Origin: Shigella phage vB_SdyM_006
Sequence record: MK295204
DNA length: 64,000 nucleotides
Direction: 5' to 3' (one strand)
How positions within the stretch are numbered: position 1 is the first letter of the stretch; every line of letters begins with the position of its first letter. Under the pieces are notes generated by a model. That model was not told the origin of the DNA. It was given only the letters and a program-made list of their open reading frames with translations, and ran no database searches. Below, piece after piece: positions 5,832 to 36,723 of this stretch. A program made the translations under genes and the position numbers.

Positions 5832-7382
5832 ATGGAAATCAAAAATAAAGATGCATTAATCGAAAAATGGGGTGGTTTTATGAGCAACCCTGATCTTGGA
5901 GTTATCGAAGGTTCTACCAAACAAGCTATTATGGCTAAAATCTTAGAAAACCAAGAAATGGATATTCAAAAATCTCCAGAATATCGTGACGAAAAAATTG
6001 CTGAAGCTTTTGGTGATTTTTTAACTGAAGCCGAAGTTGGTGGTGACCATGGTTATGACGCTAGCAATATTGCTATGGGTAAAACAAGTGGTGCTGTAAC
6101 TCAAATTGGGCCTGCTGTAATGGGTATGGTTCGTCGTTCATTCCCTAATATGATCGGGTTTGATATCGCTGGTGTTCAGCCAATGAATGGACCAACTGGT
6201 CAGTACTTCTCATTACGTTCTATTTACGGTGAAGATCCACTGGCTAAAGATGCTAAAGAAGCATTCCATCCTATGTTTGCACCAGATGCAATGTACGGTG
6301 GTCGTGGTTCTCACGAAGTATTCGAAAAAATCGAAGCTTCAAAATCATTAACCGAAGGTAAAGTTTACACATTTGAATTTGCCGAAACTGGTACTGCACA
6401 TTTACAAGCTGTAGAAGCTGTTACTATTGCAGGTACAGATGTAGAAGTAGATGTTCTTAAGAATATTGAAGCTGGTAAATTAGTAGAAATCGCAGAAGCA
6501 ATGGCAACAAGTATTGCGGAACTGCAACAAAGCTTTAATAAGTCTAAAGACAATCCATGGGATGAAATGACTTTCCGTATCGACAAACAAGTTGTTGAAG
6601 CGAAATCAAAACAACTTAAAGCAAGTTATTCTATCGAACTGGCACAAGATTTACGTGCAGTACATGGTATGGATGCTGATGCTGAGTTGAGTTCTATCCT
6701 GGCTACAGAAATTCTGTTAGAAATGAACCGTGAATTAGTTAACTGGATTAACTATACTGCTCAACCTGGTAAAACTGGTATGACATTAACCATGGGTTCA
6801 AAAGCAGGTGTATTTGACTTCCAAGACCCAATCGATACACGTGGTGCAAGATGGGCTGGTGAAAGCTTCAAATCTCTGTTATACCAAATCGATAAAGAAG
6901 CTGCAGAAATTGCACGTCAAACTGGTCGTGGTGCTGGTAACTTCTTGATTGCTTCACGTAACGTTGTTAATATCTTAGCTTCTGTTGATGTTAACGTTAC
7001 TCCAGCTGCTCAAGGTTTAGCACGTGGTCTGAATACAGATACAACTAAAGCAGTATTTGCCGGTGTTCTTGGTGGTAAATACAAAGTTTATATTGACCAA
7101 TACGCTCGTCAAGATTACTTCACTGTTGGTTATAAAGGTGCTAACGAAATGGATGCAGGTATCTACTACTGTCCATACGTTGCATTAACACCATTACGTG
7201 GTAGCGATCCTAAGAACTTCCAACCAGTAATGGGCTTCAAAACTCGTTACGGTATTGGTATTAACCCATTTGCTGATTCTCGTTCACAAGCTCCAACAGA
7301 CAGAATCACTTCTGGTATGCCTTCTTTAGATTCAATCGGTAAGAATGCTTACTTCCGCCGTGTGTGGGTTAAAGGTGCATAA
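5832..7382 (+). CDS. 23: major capsid protein
   Basis: 516 aa; near-identical blocks to T4 gp23 (GDHGY, TSGAVTQIGPAVMGMVRR, RGSDPKNFQPVMGFKTRYGIGINPF); strong terminator downstream. Confidence 0.97.
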   Translation: MEIKNKDALIEKWGGFMSNPDLGVIEGSTKQAIMAKILENQEMDIQKSPEYRDEKIAEAFGDFLTEAEVGGDHGYDASNIAMGKTSGAVTQIGPAVMGMVRRSFPNMIGFDIAGVQPMNGPTGQYFSLRSIYGEDPLAKDAKEAFHPMFAPDAMYGGRGSHEVFEKIEASKSLTEGKVYTFEFAETGTAHLQAVEAVTIAGTDVEVDVLKNIEAGKLVEIAEAMATSIAELQQSFNKSKDNPWDEMTFRIDKQVVEAKSKQLKASYSIELAQDLRAVHGMDADAELSSILATEILLEMNRELVNWINYTAQPGKTGMTLTMGSKAGVFDFQDPIDTRGARWAGESFKSLLYQIDKEAAEIARQTGRGAGNFLIASRNVVNILASVDVNVTPAAQGLARGLNTDTTKAVFAGVLGGKYKVYIDQYARQDYFTVGYKGANEMDAGIYYCPYVALTPLRGSDPKNFQPVMGFKTRYGIGINPFADSRSQAPTDRITSGMPSLDSIGKNAYFRRVWVKGA

Positions 7383-26419: not shown

Positions 26420-28483
26420 TTAAATAATAAATTTTTCTGGGACAAAAGTAAGATCAACAGCTGTTGATAATAATTCTAGCCCTTTTTGACTAATTTTACC
26501 AGTATTTTCTTTTAAGAATTCTTTAAACCCAATTTTTTCGATTTTTCCTTCAGATAAAAACTTATTTCCGTCAATAAGTTCGCTTTCATCTAGTAATTCT
26601 GGATCCACTACAGATGTTTCTACTAATATTGGTCTATTAAATTCTATATCACGAGCGTTTTCATAACCGTGGATAGAATGAATCTTAAGAGCTAAACCTC
26701 TAGGTAAAATCACCTCGCATTCACTAGAGTATTTTGACATATTACCAGGAATAATAACATTGACTTTATGTGCACCTTTAATAGTTATACCCATAGAAAT
26801 GTTAATATCTGTTTTCTTAGTTGCTTTCTTACCATTAACGGCTACACCAATATTTTTTGGTGTCATAACTGTTGATATAACATCATCGAATGTTTCGGAT
26901 TCAAAAGTTACTGTAGTCGCGTTAGGTTTAATATTATCAAGAACATCATTTCGTTCCCCAAAAATAATTGGAGCTAATGAAGTCGAAATATAATTAGGAA
27001 AATATAATGTTTTATTTTTAGCAGCTTTTTCTACGTCGGCATAAGGTAATTTTTGTGCTCTATATAAAATAGTTCCTTTTTCTAACTTGGTTCCTTTTTT
27101 GAAGGCCCCATCTAAGACAGGAATTTTGTTTTCATACACAGATTTTAAACTTTTATCTTTACCAAGCAAAAAGTCGTTCATTTCTTCATATCCACGTAAA
27201 GCATAATCTGTGATAACTTTTCGCTCTTCTTCTGTTAAATCCATTTCTGTTTCGGTTCTAAATAACTCTTCTAAAGGAGTATAGAAAACATTTCTGTTTA
27301 AAGCAGAGATACAGCCTCTTAAAGCTCTAGTCTTAGCCACATTATCGTCAGGTCCATATGTTTCTAAATCTTCGGCTATTTTTTTGTAAACATCCATAGC
27401 ATTATTAGAAGTTTTGAGCGCATTGTTAATTATCAATATATACGGTTTTGCTAATTTATATTTTTCTTCACTAGATAAATGATAAAAATTTTCAACACCA
27501 TACCCAGATATGCGTTCTAAAGAATCTAATAAAAATCTAGCTTCTAGATCTGATTCTTCTTCACTCACGGCCGAATTTATTTTATCTAAAAACACAGATT
27601 TAGATTCATCAATTTTATTAAGGACATTTTTATGAACTAATGCAATTTTTGTAGAATCACTTTGGACAATAGGAGGATTATCTTGTAGTTCAATATATTT
27701 TCTTCTTCCTTCTTCAGAATAATTTTCTAAGTCTTCTGGTTTAGAAACACCATACATTGCTGATAATAATTCACGTCTAGAAACTTTAGTTTTTGAAATG
27801 ACAGATCGTTCACTTCTTGTGTTTTCTTGTGCTGCAATACTTCCTGCAATGGCTTCTAATTTAGACACTTGCTTGCCAGTTTTGTCATTGATATACACAT
27901 CACCTACTTTAGAATCGACTTTAGTATATAAGTCAGAATCAATACCAGGAATCCCAGCGATGTCTTCTAAAGGTCTGTTTTTACGATATATTAAAACATA
28001 AGCATGTTTACCTGTAAATTGATACAAATCTTCTAAGACAACAAATTTACCACCAGTACGTTGCATAGCCAGACGTTTGATTATTCTTTGTAATGTCTTT
28101 TCTTGGCCTTTCATTTTTTTAGCAGGGAATCTAAATAAAACTGCGTCCATTTTAAGTTTTTTAACTTGTTCGTATACAGTGTCAAAAATAGTATTCAATG
28201 CCCCAATAGGGTCTGAGCCTAAACCATTTCTTAATTCTGCTGCATTACCATTTTTAGACAAACTCATCAAAAACACTTGAACAAATTTATCACCTTGCTT
28301 TACTGCTTTTAATGCATCGCCTTTAGATAAATAAGACACCATTCTAACTAAAAGATTGTCATTTCCAGGAACACTGACATTCCATAATTGAGGGACCTTA
28401 GCCCTTTTATTAAGATTAATAGCTTTATATTGAGCTATTTCTGAATCAAAAACCTCATTTAAATTAATTTCATTTAATTCCAT
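26420..28483 (-). CDS. alt: Alt-like ADP-ribosyltransferase (packaged, R-S-ExE class)
   Basis: 687 aa vs 682 in T4; ART triad in order: LYRAQ (Arg), ISTSL (Ser-Thr-Ser), ECEVILPRG (Glu-x-Glu); TATAAATA late promoter upstream. Confidence 0.8.
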   Translation of the reverse strand: MELNEINLNEVFDSEIAQYKAINLNKRAKVPQLWNVSVPGNDNLLVRMVSYLSKGDALKAVKQGDKFVQVFLMSLSKNGNAAELRNGLGSDPIGALNTIFDTVYEQVKKLKMDAVLFRFPAKKMKGQEKTLQRIIKRLAMQRTGGKFVVLEDLYQFTGKHAYVLIYRKNRPLEDIAGIPGIDSDLYTKVDSKVGDVYINDKTGKQVSKLEAIAGSIAAQENTRSERSVISKTKVSRRELLSAMYGVSKPEDLENYSEEGRRKYIELQDNPPIVQSDSTKIALVHKNVLNKIDESKSVFLDKINSAVSEEESDLEARFLLDSLERISGYGVENFYHLSSEEKYKLAKPYILIINNALKTSNNAMDVYKKIAEDLETYGPDDNVAKTRALRGCISALNRNVFYTPLEELFRTETEMDLTEEERKVITDYALRGYEEMNDFLLGKDKSLKSVYENKIPVLDGAFKKGTKLEKGTILYRAQKLPYADVEKAAKNKTLYFPNYISTSLAPIIFGERNDVLDNIKPNATTVTFESETFDDVISTVMTPKNIGVAVNGKKATKKTDINISMGITIKGAHKVNVIIPGNMSKYSSECEVILPRGLALKIHSIHGYENARDIEFNRPILVETSVVDPELLDESELIDGNKFLSEGKIEKIGFKEFLKENTGKISQKGLELLSTAVDLTFVPEKFII

Positions 28484-28521: not shown

Positions 28522-28527
28522 CCAAAA

Positions 28528-28550
28528 AGGAGACCGAAGTCTCCTTGTTT
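28528..28550 (-). terminator. hairpin terminator (AGGAGAC-CGAA-GTCTCCT family)
   Basis: 7-bp stem, CGAA loop, T-run on minus strand; between cassette gene and alt late promoter. Confidence 0.6.
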
Positions 28551-28773: not shown

Positions 28774-28813
28774 AATATACTCCGTTGTTTCCGTGTGTTG
28801 TTTCAATATGTAT

Positions 28814-28842
28814 ATAATAACATGTCTACAGCAAAAGTAAAC
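28814..28842 (-). promoter_or_regulatory. early promoter (GTTTAC-N17-TATTAT), cassette copy
   Basis: Minus-strand GTTTAC (plus 28837-28842), 17-nt spacer, TATTAT (plus 28814-28819). Confidence 0.6.
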
Positions 28843-28861
28843 ATGTTATTGTGGCTTTTTA

Positions 28862-29098: not shown

Positions 29099-29135
29099 TA
29101 TATACTCCATTTTCGTATGTTGTTTCAATATGTAT

Positions 29136-29164
29136 ATAATAACATGTCTACAGCAAAAGTAAAC
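29136..29164 (-). promoter_or_regulatory. early promoter (GTTTAC-N17-TATTAT), cassette copy
   Basis: Minus-strand GTTTAC (plus 29159-29164), 17-nt spacer, TATTAT (plus 29136-29141); directly follows a terminator hairpin. Confidence 0.6.
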
Positions 29165-29185
29165 AAAAAAGAGCCTTTCGGCTCT
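29165..29185 (-). terminator. hairpin terminator upstream of cassette promoter
   Basis: GAGCC-TTTC-GGCTC followed on minus strand by TTTTTT then GTTTAC. Confidence 0.6.
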
Positions 29186-33093: not shown

Positions 33094-33107
33094 ATATCCT
33101 CTAAACC

Positions 33108-33130
33108 AAAAAAGGAGACCGGAGTCTCCT
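33108..33130 (-). terminator. hairpin terminator 20 nt upstream of NADAR-like gene start
   Basis: AGGAGAC-CGGA-GTCTCCT with T-run on minus strand. Confidence 0.55.
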
Positions 33131-33137
33131 TAATCAT

Positions 33138-33374
33138 TTATAGTGTCACCAAATCCAAGATACGCTCTATTTGGTCAATAATTGCTTTGCCAGAGTCATT
33201 ATCGTAAACAAACTTTGTTAATGCTATATTTCTTATAGTAGTTGTTTTTGCTAATTCTTTAAGATCGTTATTAAAGAAATAAAGTGCGTCGGCTTCATTG
33301 TCGAAATACTTATTATAAACCTTTTTTTCTTTAACAATTCTGTATACTAAATTATATTGAGTTGATGTTGACAT
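33138..33374 (-). CDS. hypothetical early protein
   Basis: 78 aa; early promoter upstream, hairpin terminator downstream. Confidence 0.45.
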   Translation of the reverse strand: MSTSTQYNLVYRIVKEKKVYNKYFDNEADALYFFNNDLKELAKTTTIRNIALTKFVYDNDSGKAIIDQIERILDLVTL

Positions 33375-33402: not shown

Positions 33403-33432
33403 ATAATATCCTTTTTTAAAAGAGAAGTAAAC
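33403..33432 (-). promoter_or_regulatory. early promoter (GTTTAC-N18-TATTAT)
   Basis: Minus-strand GTTTAC (plus 33427-33432) and TATTAT (plus 33403-33408) upstream of gene 33138..33374. Confidence 0.45.
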
Positions 33433-33450
33433 ACTTATTTTCAATAAAAC

Positions 33451-33474
33451 CAAAAAAGGAGACCGAAGTCTCCT
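33451..33474 (-). terminator. hairpin terminator (AGGAGAC-CGAA-GTCTCCT family)
   Basis: Same stem as 28528 copy; T-run on minus strand. Confidence 0.6.
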
Positions 33475-33479
33475 TAAAT

Positions 33480-33614
33480 TTATTTCTTGTTTCCTAAATT
33501 AGCTAAAAACTTAGCTCGCCCATTTTCTTGTCGTTTAACAAATCCAACCAGTTTGTCTAGGTCTTGGTTAATACGTTTATTTGTTTTTCGTTTGTAACCT
33601 TTACGTGCGGACAT
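33480..33614 (-). CDS. small basic protein, 44 aa
   Basis: My own translation: MSARKGYKRKTNKRINQDLDKLVGFVKRQENGRAKFLANLGNKK; below ORF-track cutoff. Confidence 0.3.
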   Translation of the reverse strand: MSARKGYKRKTNKRINQDLDKLVGFVKRQENGRAKFLANLGNKK

Positions 33615-33623
33615 AGTAATTCC

Positions 33624-33869
33624 TTATTTCAATGTAACAATATAATGACGAACAGCTTTACGTGCATTAGAACTTAAATGCTTAGCATATTTTAAATTAT
33701 CATTTTCGATAAGCTCTTGGTGAAGATTTTTTTGTTCTGGATTTAAGTGTTTAAAACCTTCAAGAACTTTAAGTGCTTCAGCCAGAACATCGATTGATGC
33801 ACCATAGTTTTCATGGCCATTTTGGAAAGAATTACGTTGGATATCTAAAATTGTTTTTACAAAAGTCAT
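33624..33869 (-). CDS. hypothetical protein
   Basis: 81 aa ORF upstream of gene 31 region. Confidence 0.4.
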   Translation of the reverse strand: MTFVKTILDIQRNSFQNGHENYGASIDVLAEALKVLEGFKHLNPEQKNLHQELIENDNLKYAKHLSSNARKAVRHYIVTLK

Positions 33870-33942: not shown

Positions 33943-34260
33943 TTATTTATACACTGCTGCAATAGATTTATAATGAGCAGTAATAAATTTTATTGGGAAT
34001 TCACTAGCTTTTTTATCATTAAAAACAGTTTCTGGATGAGGAACATTACGCATGTTACCTGTAGGTAAAGGGACCTTATCACCGATCTCAAAATAACCTT
34101 GAGGAACACAATCACCAATGGCATAAATTTCACCATATTGTGGTAATTCACCTTGTTGACGAACACCAATAACAATACCTGAAGCCGAAACTTCTTCGGT
34201 CCCAGCTGATTCTGCTTTTGCTGCTATAATAACGCTTTCACCTAATGCTTTAATATCCAT
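33943..34260 (-). CDS. 31: head assembly co-chaperonin (GroES-like)
   Basis: 105 aa vs 111 in T4; GNMRNVPHP and FITAHYKSIAAVYK align with T4 gp31 (IRNVPHP, FVTCHYKAIPCLYK). Confidence 0.85.
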   Translation of the reverse strand: MDIKALGESVIIAAKAESAGTEEVSASGIVIGVRQQGELPQYGEIYAIGDCVPQGYFEIGDKVPLPTGNMRNVPHPETVFNDKKASEFPIKFITAHYKSIAAVYK

Positions 34261-35413: not shown

Positions 35414-35752
35414 TTATTCCTTAAGCATATACATATAAACTAAATAGGTTGTGTTTCTAGTTTTTACAATAGCTACTCTATCATCTAACATTTTAAAGCT
35501 CTTTACAGTAGATGTACTAACATAAGTTTCATCTTTAAATCGATTAGAAATATCACTGTAAATAAGTCCAGAAATACCAAATCTGGCTTCTAAATTAACT
35601 TCAAGAATATGCTCTAATTTATCAGACATTCGATGTCCGATAACAGCTAGAATAGCATCGCATGCACAAGCATTTCGAATAGAAGATAATTCAGATTCTT
35701 GGTTTTGCCCTATTTTATCTTCAATTGCGTTAATCAATTTTTCTGTTTTCAT
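35414..35752 (-). CDS. hypothetical protein
   Basis: 112 aa ORF immediately downstream of the DAHP synthase gene. Confidence 0.45.
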   Translation of the reverse strand: MKTEKLINAIEDKIGQNQESELSSIRNACACDAILAVIGHRMSDKLEHILEVNLEARFGISGLIYSDISNRFKDETYVSTSTVKSFKMLDDRVAIVKTRNTTYLVYMYMLKE

Positions 35753-36723
35753 TATAAGTCCACAATTAATTGTGCAGTGTCAAAGATATCAATACAAGGA
35801 TCTGTAATTGATACACCCCATAAAAGATTATCGGAAATCTTTTGATTACCTTCTATTAAATTACTTTCAATCATAAGCCCAAAAGTATTTTTAGCTTTAA
35901 TTGCTTCTTTAGCTACATTAATTTGGTTTTTAAAATTACCTTCACAATTAGCGTGTGAGCAGTCAACCATAACTGGAATCTCTAAAGACTCAATATATTC
36001 TTTAGAATAATTAGTTTTATATTCTTTACCGATTTTACCACCACGTAAAATAATATGCGTATTTAGATTTCCACTTGCATAGATTTTACTAATCACGCCA
36101 TCCATATTAATACCTAAATACGAATGTGGAAAAGCTGAACTCTTCATAGCATCTAATGCTACTTGAATATCACCTGATGTTGAATTTTTAAATCCAACGG
36201 CCATAGGCAGCCCAGAAGCTATTTCACGATGAGTCTGTGATTCTGTTGTTCTAGCGCCGATAGCAGTCCAACTAAAAATACCAGATAGATACTTAATAGT
36301 AAATGGGTCTAAGACCTCTGTCGCCAAAGGAAGCCCAAGATTCAATAGTTCTATGCATAAGTGACGAGCAATTCTTAACCCTTCATCCATGTTAAACGAA
36401 CCATTTAATTCAGGGTCATTAACAAGTCCTTTCCAACCTACGGTTGTACGTGGCTTTTCAAAATAGACCCGCATTACTAAAAGACATTTATCACCAATAT
36501 GGTTTTGTAATCTTTTTAAATACTGCCCGTAAATGACCGCTTGTGCTGGGTCATGAATAGAACAAGGCCCAACAACGATCAGTTTTTTAGAACTCACGCC
36601 AGAAATAATATCTTTAACTTCTTGGCGATGATTTTCCACTTGTTGCTTTAATTCATCAGAAATTGGCAACTCATCATGTAGCTCTTGTGGTGTGCTAATA
36701 GTTTTAACGTGCATGGATATCAT
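35752..36723 (-). CDS. 3-deoxy-D-arabino-heptulosonate 7-phosphate (DAHP) synthase, class I (AroG-like)
   Basis: 323 aa; collinear with E. coli AroG: VVGPCSIHD, MRVYFEKPRTTVGWKGL, GARTTESQTHRE-ASGL, HIILRGG, DCSHAN, ESNLIEGNQ, SITDPCI; all four AroG metal ligands (Cys, His, Glu, Asp) conserved. Confidence 0.88.
   Translation of the reverse strand: MISMHVKTISTPQELHDELPISDELKQQVENHRQEVKDIISGVSSKKLIVVGPCSIHDPAQAVIYGQYLKRLQNHIGDKCLLVMRVYFEKPRTTVGWKGLVNDPELNGSFNMDEGLRIARHLCIELLNLGLPLATEVLDPFTIKYLSGIFSWTAIGARTTESQTHREIASGLPMAVGFKNSTSGDIQVALDAMKSSAFPHSYLGINMDGVISKIYASGNLNTHIILRGGKIGKEYKTNYSKEYIESLEIPVMVDCSHANCEGNFKNQINVAKEAIKAKNTFGLMIESNLIEGNQKISDNLLWGVSITDPCIDIFDTAQLIVDL

What the first reader, a model, noticed from the sequence alone, without database searches (positions are those of the whole stretch)
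33480..33614. Unannotated 44-aa highly basic ORF
MSARKGYKRKTNKRINQDLDKLVGFVKRQENGRAKFLANLGNKK is Lys/Arg-rich, sits between an early promoter-terminator pair and the next gene, and is below the ORF-track cutoff. It could be a nucleic-acid-binding peptide.
Basis: seen in the sequence. Interest (0 to 1): 0.3.

Follow-up and report, generated by a model that had tools for sequence, protein, structure and literature searches.

The report
Short T4 gp30.9-family basic peptide gene
The 44-codon reading frame is a real, conserved gene of a T4-like Proteus phage and a short version of the uncharacterised T4 early gene 30.9; relatives already annotate it as a hypothetical protein, so the finding is ordinary, and nucleic-acid binding remains plausible but untested.

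Summary
The ORF exists as described, on the minus strand (33614 down to 33480). It has an ATG start, an AAGGAA ribosome-binding site overlapping the stop codon of the upstream rIII homolog, and a UUCG-loop intrinsic terminator 4 nt after its own stop.

The window is a Bragavirus, a T4-like Proteus phage. The same 44-aa CDS is annotated as "hypothetical protein" in phiP4-3, SJ_PmiM, Pm5461 and PM2. Against Pm5461 it differs at 11 of 132 nucleotides with no amino-acid change, so the frame is under strong purifying selection.

It is a sequence and positional homolog of T4 gp30.9 (phrog_1427 and phrog_25450). All 29 family members collected share R-x-[GAS]-[YF]-K-R-x-x-N-x-R-[IV], a following helix and a net charge of +9 to +23. 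The Proteus form lacks the 9-21-residue basic (mostly Lys/Ala-rich) N-tail of the other members and lies 9 nt behind rIII (244 nt in T4).

The family appears restricted to T4-like phages, with no Pfam, NCBIfam or PDB relative. T4 30.9 is transcribed early and is dispensable in the lab.

AlphaFold2 gives an extended basic arm plus one helix. Nucleic-acid binding is plausible, and distant members carry K/A/P-rich basic tails, but nothing here tests it. Interest is low.

The parts
33480..33614 (-). 44-aa CDS (MSARKGYKRKTNKRINQDLDKLVGFVKRQENGRAKFLANLGNKK). It is a short-form ortholog of T4 gp30.9.
   Evidence: The ORF is listed. It hits phrog_25450 at E 1.2e-33 and phrog_1427 at E 1.5e-7. The same CDS is annotated in relatives. 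Against Pm5461 there are 11 silent and 0 replacement differences. BLASTP against T4 gp30.9 gives E 2e-7.
33620..33625 (-). Shine-Dalgarno-like AAGGAA, 5 nt before the ATG. It overlaps the TAA stop of the rIII homolog (33626..33624).
   Evidence: Read directly from the sequence. The site is conserved in phiP4-3 and Pm5461.
33567..33605 (-). Codons 4-16, encoding the family-defining basic arm RKGYKRKTNKRIN. R4, K8, R9, N12 and R14 are invariant. G6 and Y7 are nearly invariant.
   Evidence: Alignments A2 and A3. A motif scan found it in 29 of 29 members.
33450..33475 (-). Intrinsic terminator AAGGAGAC-UUCG-GUCUCCUU followed by a U run. The stem starts 4 nt after the ORF stop codon.
   Evidence: Terminator scan and RNA fold. 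The sequence is identical in phiP4-3 and Pm5461. T4 has the equivalent UUCG terminator directly after gene 30.9.
33403..33431 (-). Early-type promoter-like site TTTACT-17-TATTAT. It would drive the next gene (the 78-aa ORF), not the 44-aa ORF.
   Evidence: Promoter scan. T4 has a comparable site after its 30.9 terminator. Terminator-plus-early-promoter composites in T4-like phages are described as PeSLs in PMC2839356 and PMC4122927 (titles and abstracts).
33624..33869 (-). rIII homolog (81 aa, lysis-inhibition accessory protein). This is the upstream cistron, separated from the 44-aa ORF by a 9-nt spacer.
   Evidence: It hits phrog_1457 at E 1e-37 and is annotated as rIII in relatives.
33944..33951 (-). 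TATAAATA (by my own knowledge the T4 late-promoter consensus), overlapping the last codons of the gp31 homolog and upstream of rIII plus the 44-aa ORF.
   Evidence: Motif search. The motif count in the window is not above chance. The same site is annotated as a promoter in Pm5461.

Best explanation
The ORF is a functional gene and the Bragavirus ortholog of T4 early gene 30.9.

Shown here:
- It is the last cistron of the transcription unit that carries the gp31 and rIII homologs.
- Its ribosome-binding site overlaps the rIII stop codon.
- An intrinsic terminator closes the unit 4 nt after the ORF.

Inferred, not shown: translation coupled to rIII.

The product is a 5.1-kDa peptide with a net charge of +11. 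It consists of an extended N-terminal arm (residues 1-16) carrying the invariant family motif R-x-G-Y-K-R-x-x-N-x-R-I, followed by one helix (residues 17-42).

Inferred mechanism: the arm recognises one specific, highly conserved polyanionic target in the infected cell. The target is most likely nucleic acid. My order of preference is structured RNA or the ribosome (about 0.3), DNA (about 0.25) and an acidic protein surface (about 0.2). The variable Lys/Ala/Pro-rich tails of other family members would add non-specific electrostatic affinity. The Proteus form has lost the N-terminal tail and keeps only the core.

The role is an accessory host-takeover or counter-defence function, not one essential for growth.

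Confidence by part: that it is a real gene and a gp30.9 homolog, about 0.95. That it binds nucleic acid, about 0.55. The stated confidence refers to the whole statement.
For: Real gene:
- The frame is conserved with 11 silent and 0 replacement differences against Pm5461.
- Relatives annotate the CDS.
- A ribosome-binding site is present.
- Diverged 41-aa short forms (80% and 50% identical in alignment A3) sit in the same place, 7-8 nt after rIII, on metagenome contigs.

gp30.9 homology:
- It hits phrog_1427 at E 1.5e-7. phrog_1427 is the family assigned to T4 30.9 in the supplement of PMC11879866.
- BLASTP against T4 gp30.9 gives E 2e-7.
- The motif is present in 29 of 29 family members.
- The position after gp31 and rIII is conserved in T4, JS98, Aes508, AKM_NP4, myPSH1140, X20, Thanatos-2 and SW69-9.
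- T4 shows the same layout of 30.9, UUCG terminator and early promoter.

Mechanism:
- Net charge is +9 to +23 across the family.
- AlphaFold2 gives an extended arm plus a single helix at pLDDT 82.
- K/A/P-rich basic C-tails occur in P0016, P0021, P0023 and P0026.
- The helix is polar (mean hydrophobicity -0.41, hydrophobic moment 0.25), which argues against a membrane role.

Accessory role: T4 30.9 transcripts are classed early (PMC9697503 Table S2). Knock-down of T4 30.9 is scored "Not Fit" (PMC11879866 supplement).
Against: - No binding evidence of any kind exists.
- No relative was found in Pfam, NCBIfam or the PDB, by single sequence or by profile.
- No cellular homolog was found among 1.84 billion representative proteins. 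The mechanism therefore rests on composition and predicted shape alone.
- T4 gp30.9 protein was not detected in the one proteome checked. By inference, tryptic peptides from so K/R-rich a protein would be very short.
- The strict invariance of the motif would fit a protein target as well as a nucleic-acid one.
- The early-expression and dispensability data are from T4, not from this phage.
Confidence: 0.55

Rival explanations
1. The peptide binds an acidic protein surface, not nucleic acid. It would act as a small modulator or inhibitor of a host or phage protein, for example a defence component, a part of the transcription or translation machinery, or a partner of rIII. The invariant arm would be a linear docking motif.
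For: Twelve residues with five invariant positions are kept from Shewanella, Aeromonas and Stenotrophomonas phages to coliphages. That is more typical of a specific docking motif than of non-specific charge. The gene is accessory and, in T4, early. It is tightly juxtaposed to rIII in the Bragavirus clade. PMC9409239 reports that T4 RIII binds ribosomal protein S1.
Against: No partner is indicated by any result. Aeromonas and Shewanella phages keep 30.9 but lack rIII at this locus, so rIII cannot be the universal partner. The K/A/P-rich basic tails in distant members point to nucleic acid.
Confidence: 0.2
2. The ORF is a decaying remnant: a 5'-truncated pseudogene of 30.9 that remains open by chance.
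For: It lacks the 9-21-residue N-terminal tail found in the other 23 family members. It is the shortest type in the family.
Against: There are 11 silent and 0 replacement differences against Pm5461. The short form, with the full invariant motif, a ribosome-binding site and the same position, is kept in lineages only 50% identical (P0013). All other frames are closed.
Confidence: 0.03
3. The conserved element is an RNA, such as an sRNA or the 3' UTR of rIII ending at the terminator. On this view the ORF is incidental.
For: The region ends in a strong terminator hairpin. Rfam gives weak matches here: PhrS at 26.4 bits against a gathering score of 37, and BSR0709.
Against: Both Rfam matches are below their gathering scores. 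BSR0709 covers only the terminator hairpin, and the PhrS match includes it. Of the 11 differences from Pm5461, 8 fall at third codon positions and the other 3 are first-position changes in Leu codons, so none alters the protein. Homology to T4 gp30.9 is detectable at the protein level where the DNA has diverged.
Confidence: 0.02
4. It is a cationic amphipathic, membrane-active peptide that works with rIII in controlling lysis timing at the inner face of the membrane.
For: It is adjacent to rIII and probably translated together with it. It is cationic and helical.
Against: Mean helix hydrophobicity is -0.41 and the hydrophobic moment is only 0.25. The invariant part is the non-helical arm, not the helix. 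Phages without rIII at this locus keep the gene.
Confidence: 0.05

Closest known systems
Bacteriophage T4 gp30.9 (NP_049823, UniProt P17310; PHROG phrog_1427). It is an uncharacterised 58-aa early protein.
   Same: The two share the motif (T4 SKRAGYKRGSNSRINQ against this ORF's SARKGYKRKTNKRINQ), followed by a helix and a basic C-end. Both lie after gp31 and rIII. Both are followed directly by a UUCG-loop terminator and an early promoter.
   Different: The Proteus protein lacks T4's 19-residue Lys/Ala-rich stretch ahead of the motif. It starts 9 nt after rIII instead of 244 nt. The helix and C-end have diverged: identity is 55% over 22 residues, and nothing aligns beyond that in BLASTP.
phrog_25450: 44-aa hypothetical proteins of Proteus Bragavirus phages (YP_009195620.1 of Pm5461, YP_010093596.1 of phiP4-3).
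   Same: The product is 100% identical to those of Pm5461 and PM2. Identity is 97.7% to SJ_PmiM and 93.2% to phiP4-3.
   Different: There is no difference of substance. PHROGs keeps this short family separate from phrog_1427; the link between the two is made here.
Arginine-rich-motif peptides and small basic ribosome-binding proteins, for example lambda N, RMF and bS21. This is an analogy recalled from memory, not a tested relationship.
   Same: They are short and strongly basic. They have an extended or induced-fit arm plus a helix, and they act by gripping RNA.
   Different: No sequence or profile similarity to any of them was found in the searches of all representative proteins or of the PDB. 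No RNA target is known for this family.
PeSL promoter-terminator composites of T4-like phages (PMC2839356, PMC4122927).
   Same: The terminator hairpin plus early-type promoter immediately downstream of the ORF has this layout. The hairpin recurs three times in the window.
   Different: This describes the flanking regulatory element, not the ORF. I did not compare the sequence with the published PeSL consensus.

Membership tests
T4 gp30.9 family (phrog_1427 / phrog_25450) | Significant match to the family profile. | tested here: met
   The ORF hits phrog_25450 at E 1.2e-33 over its full length and phrog_1427 at E 1.5e-7 over residues 2-30. T4 30.9 is listed as phrog_1427 in the supplement of PMC11879866.
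T4 gp30.9 family (phrog_1427 / phrog_25450) | Core motif R-x-[GAS]-[YF]-K-R-x-x-N-x-R-[IV] followed by a helix. | tested here: met
   The motif RKGYKRKTNKRI is at residues 4-15. It is present in 29 of 29 members. AlphaFold2 predicts a helix at residues 17-42.
T4 gp30.9 family (phrog_1427 / phrog_25450) | Position downstream of gp31 (and of rIII where present), with a terminator and early promoter after the gene. | tested here: met
   The window layout is shown. The same position was found in eight other phages. The T4 terminator and promoter are shown.
T4 gp30.9 family (phrog_1427 / phrog_25450) | Basic N-terminal extension (mostly Lys/Ala-rich) of 9-21 residues before the motif. | tested here: not met
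   Only 3 residues precede the motif. The same holds for the five other short-form members. This feature is typical of the long form but is not universal, so the ORF is a short variant of the family.
T4 gp30.9 family (phrog_1427 / phrog_25450) | Early expression during infection. | not testable with these tools
   T4 30.9 transcripts are classed early, and the protein was not detected (PMC9697503 Table S2). No expression data exist for this phage.
Ribbon-helix-helix DNA-binding proteins (Arc / MetJ / CopG) | An N-terminal beta-strand followed by two helices separated by a turn, with a match to RHH profiles. | tested here: not met
   No RHH family appears in Pfam, even at E up to 10. AlphaFold2 gives one continuous helix at 17-42 and no strand.
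bZIP-like architecture (basic region plus dimerising helix); an analogy only | Confident homodimer through the helix. | tested here: inconclusive
   A tandem construct of two copies joined by a linker, run with a matching alignment, gave pLDDT 51 and pTM 0.25. This gives no support, but the test is weak.
Known RNA families (Rfam 15) | A match at or above the family gathering score. | tested here: not met
   The only hits were PhrS at 26.4 bits (gathering score 37) and BSR0709 at 16.7 bits (gathering score 382). BSR0709 covers only the terminator hairpin; the PhrS match includes it.

The most novel reading that the evidence does not exclude
The gp30.9 family could be a phage-specific peptide that binds the ribosome or RNA through its invariant R-x-G-Y-K-R-x-x-N-x-R-I arm. 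In the Bragavirus clade, where it lies 9 nt behind rIII, it could form a two-gene module with rIII for reprogramming host translation or mRNA decay. T4 RIII is reported to bind ribosomal protein S1.
Probability: 0.1. Interest if true: 0.55.

Novelty: already known. Interest (0 to 1): 0.15.

Why it matters
The finding matters little as it stands. The gene is already an annotated hypothetical protein in four sequenced relatives, and it belongs to a family known, though uncharacterised, since the T4 genome was annotated.

Two modest points are added here. First, the 44-aa Proteus family (phrog_25450) is a short form of T4 gp30.9 (phrog_1427). Second, comparing the two forms defines a minimal core: a 12-residue invariant basic arm plus one helix.

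That core gives a small synthetic handle (41-44 aa) for anyone who wants to find what gp30.9 binds. gp30.9 homologs were matched in about a thousand of the 50,697 phage records searched, and the function is still unknown.

Tried and rejected
- Pfam, NCBIfam and the PDB (single sequence and profile) gave no meaningful hit. The PDB matches at E of about 0.6 are haemagglutinin helices and are chance.
- The word-indexed protein search found only three near-identical proteins.
- The exhaustive profile search found 26 hits, of which about 23 are true family members. All of these are small basic proteins; those whose genomic origin I checked come from T4-like phages. P0019 (plant-type repeat protein), P0027 and P0028 are repeat or chance hits. 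P0006, P0007 and P0008 are over-extended or chimeric gene calls of T4 30.9.
- The ribbon-helix-helix idea was rejected.
- The homodimer or bZIP-like idea received no support.
- A readthrough fusion with rIII was considered, because the two ORFs are in the same frame in the window. It was rejected because phiP4-3 has an 8-nt spacer instead of 9 nt.
- The sRNA reading was rejected.
- The membrane-peptide reading is disfavoured.
- Literature searches for gp30.9 found no functional study. The only dedicated paper, Driukas and Nivinskas 2003 in Biologija on expression of rIII and 30.9, is cited in PMC9409239 but is not held in the library.
- I did not run a fold search. The model is a single helix, which cannot discriminate between folds.

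Full report
**What is there.** It has 14 Lys+Arg and 3 Asp+Glu in 44 residues, a pI of 11.2 and a mass of 5.1 kDa. An AAGGAA ribosome-binding site at 33625-33620 lies 5 nt before the ATG and overlaps the TAA stop of the upstream gene. Four nucleotides after the ORF's own stop begins a hairpin, AAGGAGAC-UUCG-GUCUCCUU, followed by a U run (33475..33456). A promoter-like TTTACT-17-TATTAT follows at 33431..33403, and then a 78-aa ORF. The ORF is the last cistron of the preceding unit.

**Where the window comes from.** The region is 97.8% identical to Proteus phages SJ_PmiM and phiP4-3 and about 87.6% identical to Pm5461 and PM2. All are T4-like phages of the genus Bragavirus, family Straboviridae. 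On the minus strand the gene order is:
- dCMP deaminase
- a 109-aa ORF
- the gp31 co-chaperonin homolog
- the rIII homolog (33869..33624, phrog_1457 at E 1e-37)
- the 44-aa ORF
- the terminator

**Is it a gene?** A 44-codon ORF alone is not evidence, since 43 ORFs of at least 25 aa overlap this 4 kb. The comparative evidence is strong.
- The same 135-nt CDS is annotated as "hypothetical protein" in phiP4-3 (KNT81_gp059) and Pm5461 (AVT59_gp173). It is also annotated in SJ_PmiM and PM2.
- Against Pm5461 the ORF differs at 11 of 132 positions without any amino-acid change.
- Against phiP4-3 there are 10 differences and three conservative replacements (A3E, D18E, D20N).
- The other five frames contain stops in all three phages.
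- With about 22% of sites synonymous, 11 silent changes out of 11 is far from neutral expectation.
- Two more diverged short forms, P0003 (41 aa, 80% identical in alignment A3) and P0013 (41 aa, 50% identical), sit 7-8 nt after an rIII gene on metagenome contigs with the same gene order.

**What family.**
- The protein matches phrog_25450 over its full length (E 1.2e-33) and phrog_1427 over residues 2-30 (E 1.5e-7).
- tblastn shows that the N-terminal half matches a small gene in about a thousand T4-like phage records, annotated in JS98, RB69 and others as gp30.9.
- T4 gp30.9 has the sequence MAKQAKAKKAVEKKVGDSKRAGYKRGSNSRINQTVEKIMRRARAVLRDDASRFGKQKA. It aligns with the ORF at E 2e-7.
- T4 30.9 is listed as phrog_1427 in the supplement of PMC11879866.
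- In T4, JS98, Aes508, AKM_NP4, myPSH1140, X20, Thanatos-2 and SW69-9 the homolog lies directly after gp31, or after rIII where rIII is present.
- In T4 the gene is likewise followed at once by a UUCG-loop terminator and an early-type promoter before gene 30.8.

Sequence, position and flanking signals all agree that the ORF is the Bragavirus ortholog of T4 30.9.

**Anatomy of the family.** A profile built from 12 members was scored against 1.84 billion representative proteins. It found only 26 hits at E up to 0.001. About 23 are true members, and all of these are 41-113 aa and basic. The rest are repeat proteins or mis-called and chimeric ORFs. No cellular homolog appeared. Pfam, NCBIfam and PDB searches, by sequence and by profile, were empty or at chance level.

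All 29 sequences aligned carry R-x-[GAS]-[YF]-K-R-x-x-N-x-R-[IV]. R4, K8, R9, N12 and R14 (numbering of this ORF) are invariant, and G6, Y7 and L22 are nearly so. Net charge ranges from +9 to +23. Twenty-three members carry a basic N-terminal tail of 9-21 residues, mostly Lys/Ala-rich. Several distant members add long Lys/Ala/Pro-rich C-tails, such as KAPTKPRAPRKPKANKVTKAV in Thanatos-2. The six Bragavirus-type members have only 2-3 residues before the motif. The short form thus defines the minimal conserved core.

**Predicted shape.** AlphaFold2, given the 29-sequence alignment, predicts residues 1-16 without regular secondary structure and one helix over residues 17-42. Mean pLDDT is 82, rising to about 95 over residues 21-30 in the helix. 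Three follow-up checks bear on alternative shapes.
- A tandem two-copy construct gave pLDDT 51 and pTM 0.25, so there is no support for a confident homodimer. This test is weak.
- The helix is polar, with mean hydrophobicity -0.41 and hydrophobic moment 0.25, which argues against a membrane-surface helix.
- A ribbon-helix-helix reading was considered because of the length and a possible turn at E-N-G. It was rejected because AlphaFold2 gives no strand and one continuous helix, and no RHH profile matches.

**Expression and importance, from T4.**
- In the time-resolved T4 omics study, 30.9 transcripts are classed as early and the protein was not detected (PMC9697503, Table S2). By inference, tryptic digestion of so K/R-rich a protein gives peptides too short to identify.
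- In the CRISPRi-ART screen, knock-down of T4 30.9 is scored "Not Fit" (score 0.04, p 0.26; supplement of PMC11879866). The gene is therefore dispensable on a laboratory host.
- The one paper devoted to the gene (Driukas and Nivinskas 2003, on expression of rIII and 30.9) is cited in PMC9409239 but could not be read.
- In this window a TATAAATA motif lies upstream of rIII, overlapping the last codons of gp31 (33951..33944). By my own knowledge this is the T4 late-promoter consensus. The same site is annotated as a promoter in Pm5461. The rIII-ORF pair may therefore also be expressed late. This is an inference, and the motif count in the window is not above chance.

**How it most likely works.** Shown: it is a conserved, selected, very basic peptide with an invariant 12-residue arm and one helix; it appears restricted to T4-like phages; its T4 homolog is transcribed early and is dispensable in the lab. 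Inferred: the arm grips one specific, widely conserved polyanionic target, and the variable basic tails of the longer homologs add non-specific affinity.

My estimate that the target is nucleic acid is about 0.55, with RNA or the ribosome slightly ahead of DNA. An acidic protein surface is the main rival at about 0.2. Pseudogene, sRNA and membrane-peptide readings are each unlikely, for the reasons given under the rival explanations.

**Comparison with what is known, and verdict.** The ORF is a member, in short form, of the T4 gp30.9 family. The identical protein is already an annotated CDS in public genomes. What this analysis adds is the link between phrog_25450 and phrog_1427 and the definition of the minimal core. 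"Unannotated" is an artefact of its length cut-off. "Nucleic-acid-binding" remains a reasonable but untested guess. Interest is low (0.15), and the novelty category is "already known", meaning a known gene family whose function is unknown.

Noticed in passing
window 28527-28546, 33112-33131, 33456-33475: The terminator hairpin AAGGAGAC-NNNN-GTCTCCTT occurs three times in the window, against 0 expected by chance. The copies at 33103-33133 and 33447-33477 are 97% identical over 31 nt and bracket the 78-aa ORF (33138..33374, minus strand, phrog_21205) together with its own early-type promoter. This looks like a PeSL-type promoter-terminator cassette as described for T4-like phages (PMC2839356, PMC4122927). 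Three metagenome contigs (L011-L013) end about 35 nt after the short 30.9 gene, roughly where the hairpin lies in the window. That would fit assembly breaks at a repeated element, but I did not read the contig ends.
   Followed up: partly
window 28788-28843 and 29110-29165: A 56-nt direct repeat, 96% identical. On the minus strand it reads GTTTAC-17-TATTAT followed by a short leader. It appears to be a duplicated early-promoter-like unit in front of small ORFs that lie between the DNA ligase homolog and the 687-aa ORF at 26420..28483, which I took to be Alt-like but did not check.
   Followed up: no
window 33615-33626: In the window the rIII stop codon and the 44-aa ORF start are in the same frame, separated by three sense codons (GGA ATT ACT). 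Stop-codon readthrough would therefore fuse the two proteins. phiP4-3 has an 8-nt spacer instead of 9 nt, so the frame relation is not conserved and is probably coincidental.
   Followed up: yes
window 33944-33951 (minus strand): TATAAATA overlaps the last codons (Tyr-Lys-stop) of the gp31 homolog, upstream of rIII. By my own knowledge it is an exact T4 late-promoter consensus. It is followed by two small hairpins (GGTGGTCA-TTA-TGACCAC and CCTC-GCATTTTT-GAGG) before the rIII start. The same site is annotated as a promoter in Pm5461.
   Followed up: partly
L003 (T4 NC_000866) 6542-6785, minus strand: T4 has a 244-nt spacer between rIII and 30.9, and JS98 has 352 nt, where the Proteus phages have 9 nt. 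By eye the T4 spacer looks comparatively G+C-rich. It has no Rfam match and contains an in-frame upstream ORF that some metagenome gene callers fuse to 30.9 (P0006). Its nature was not examined.
   Followed up: partly
window 35752-36723 (minus strand): A 323-aa ORF corresponds to the gene annotated as phospho-2-dehydro-3-deoxyheptonate aldolase (DAHP synthase, PF00793) in phiP4-3, Pm5461 and related contigs. It is a shikimate-pathway enzyme carried in the early region of these Proteus phages, and T4 has no such gene among those annotated around cd in the stretch I examined.
   Followed up: no
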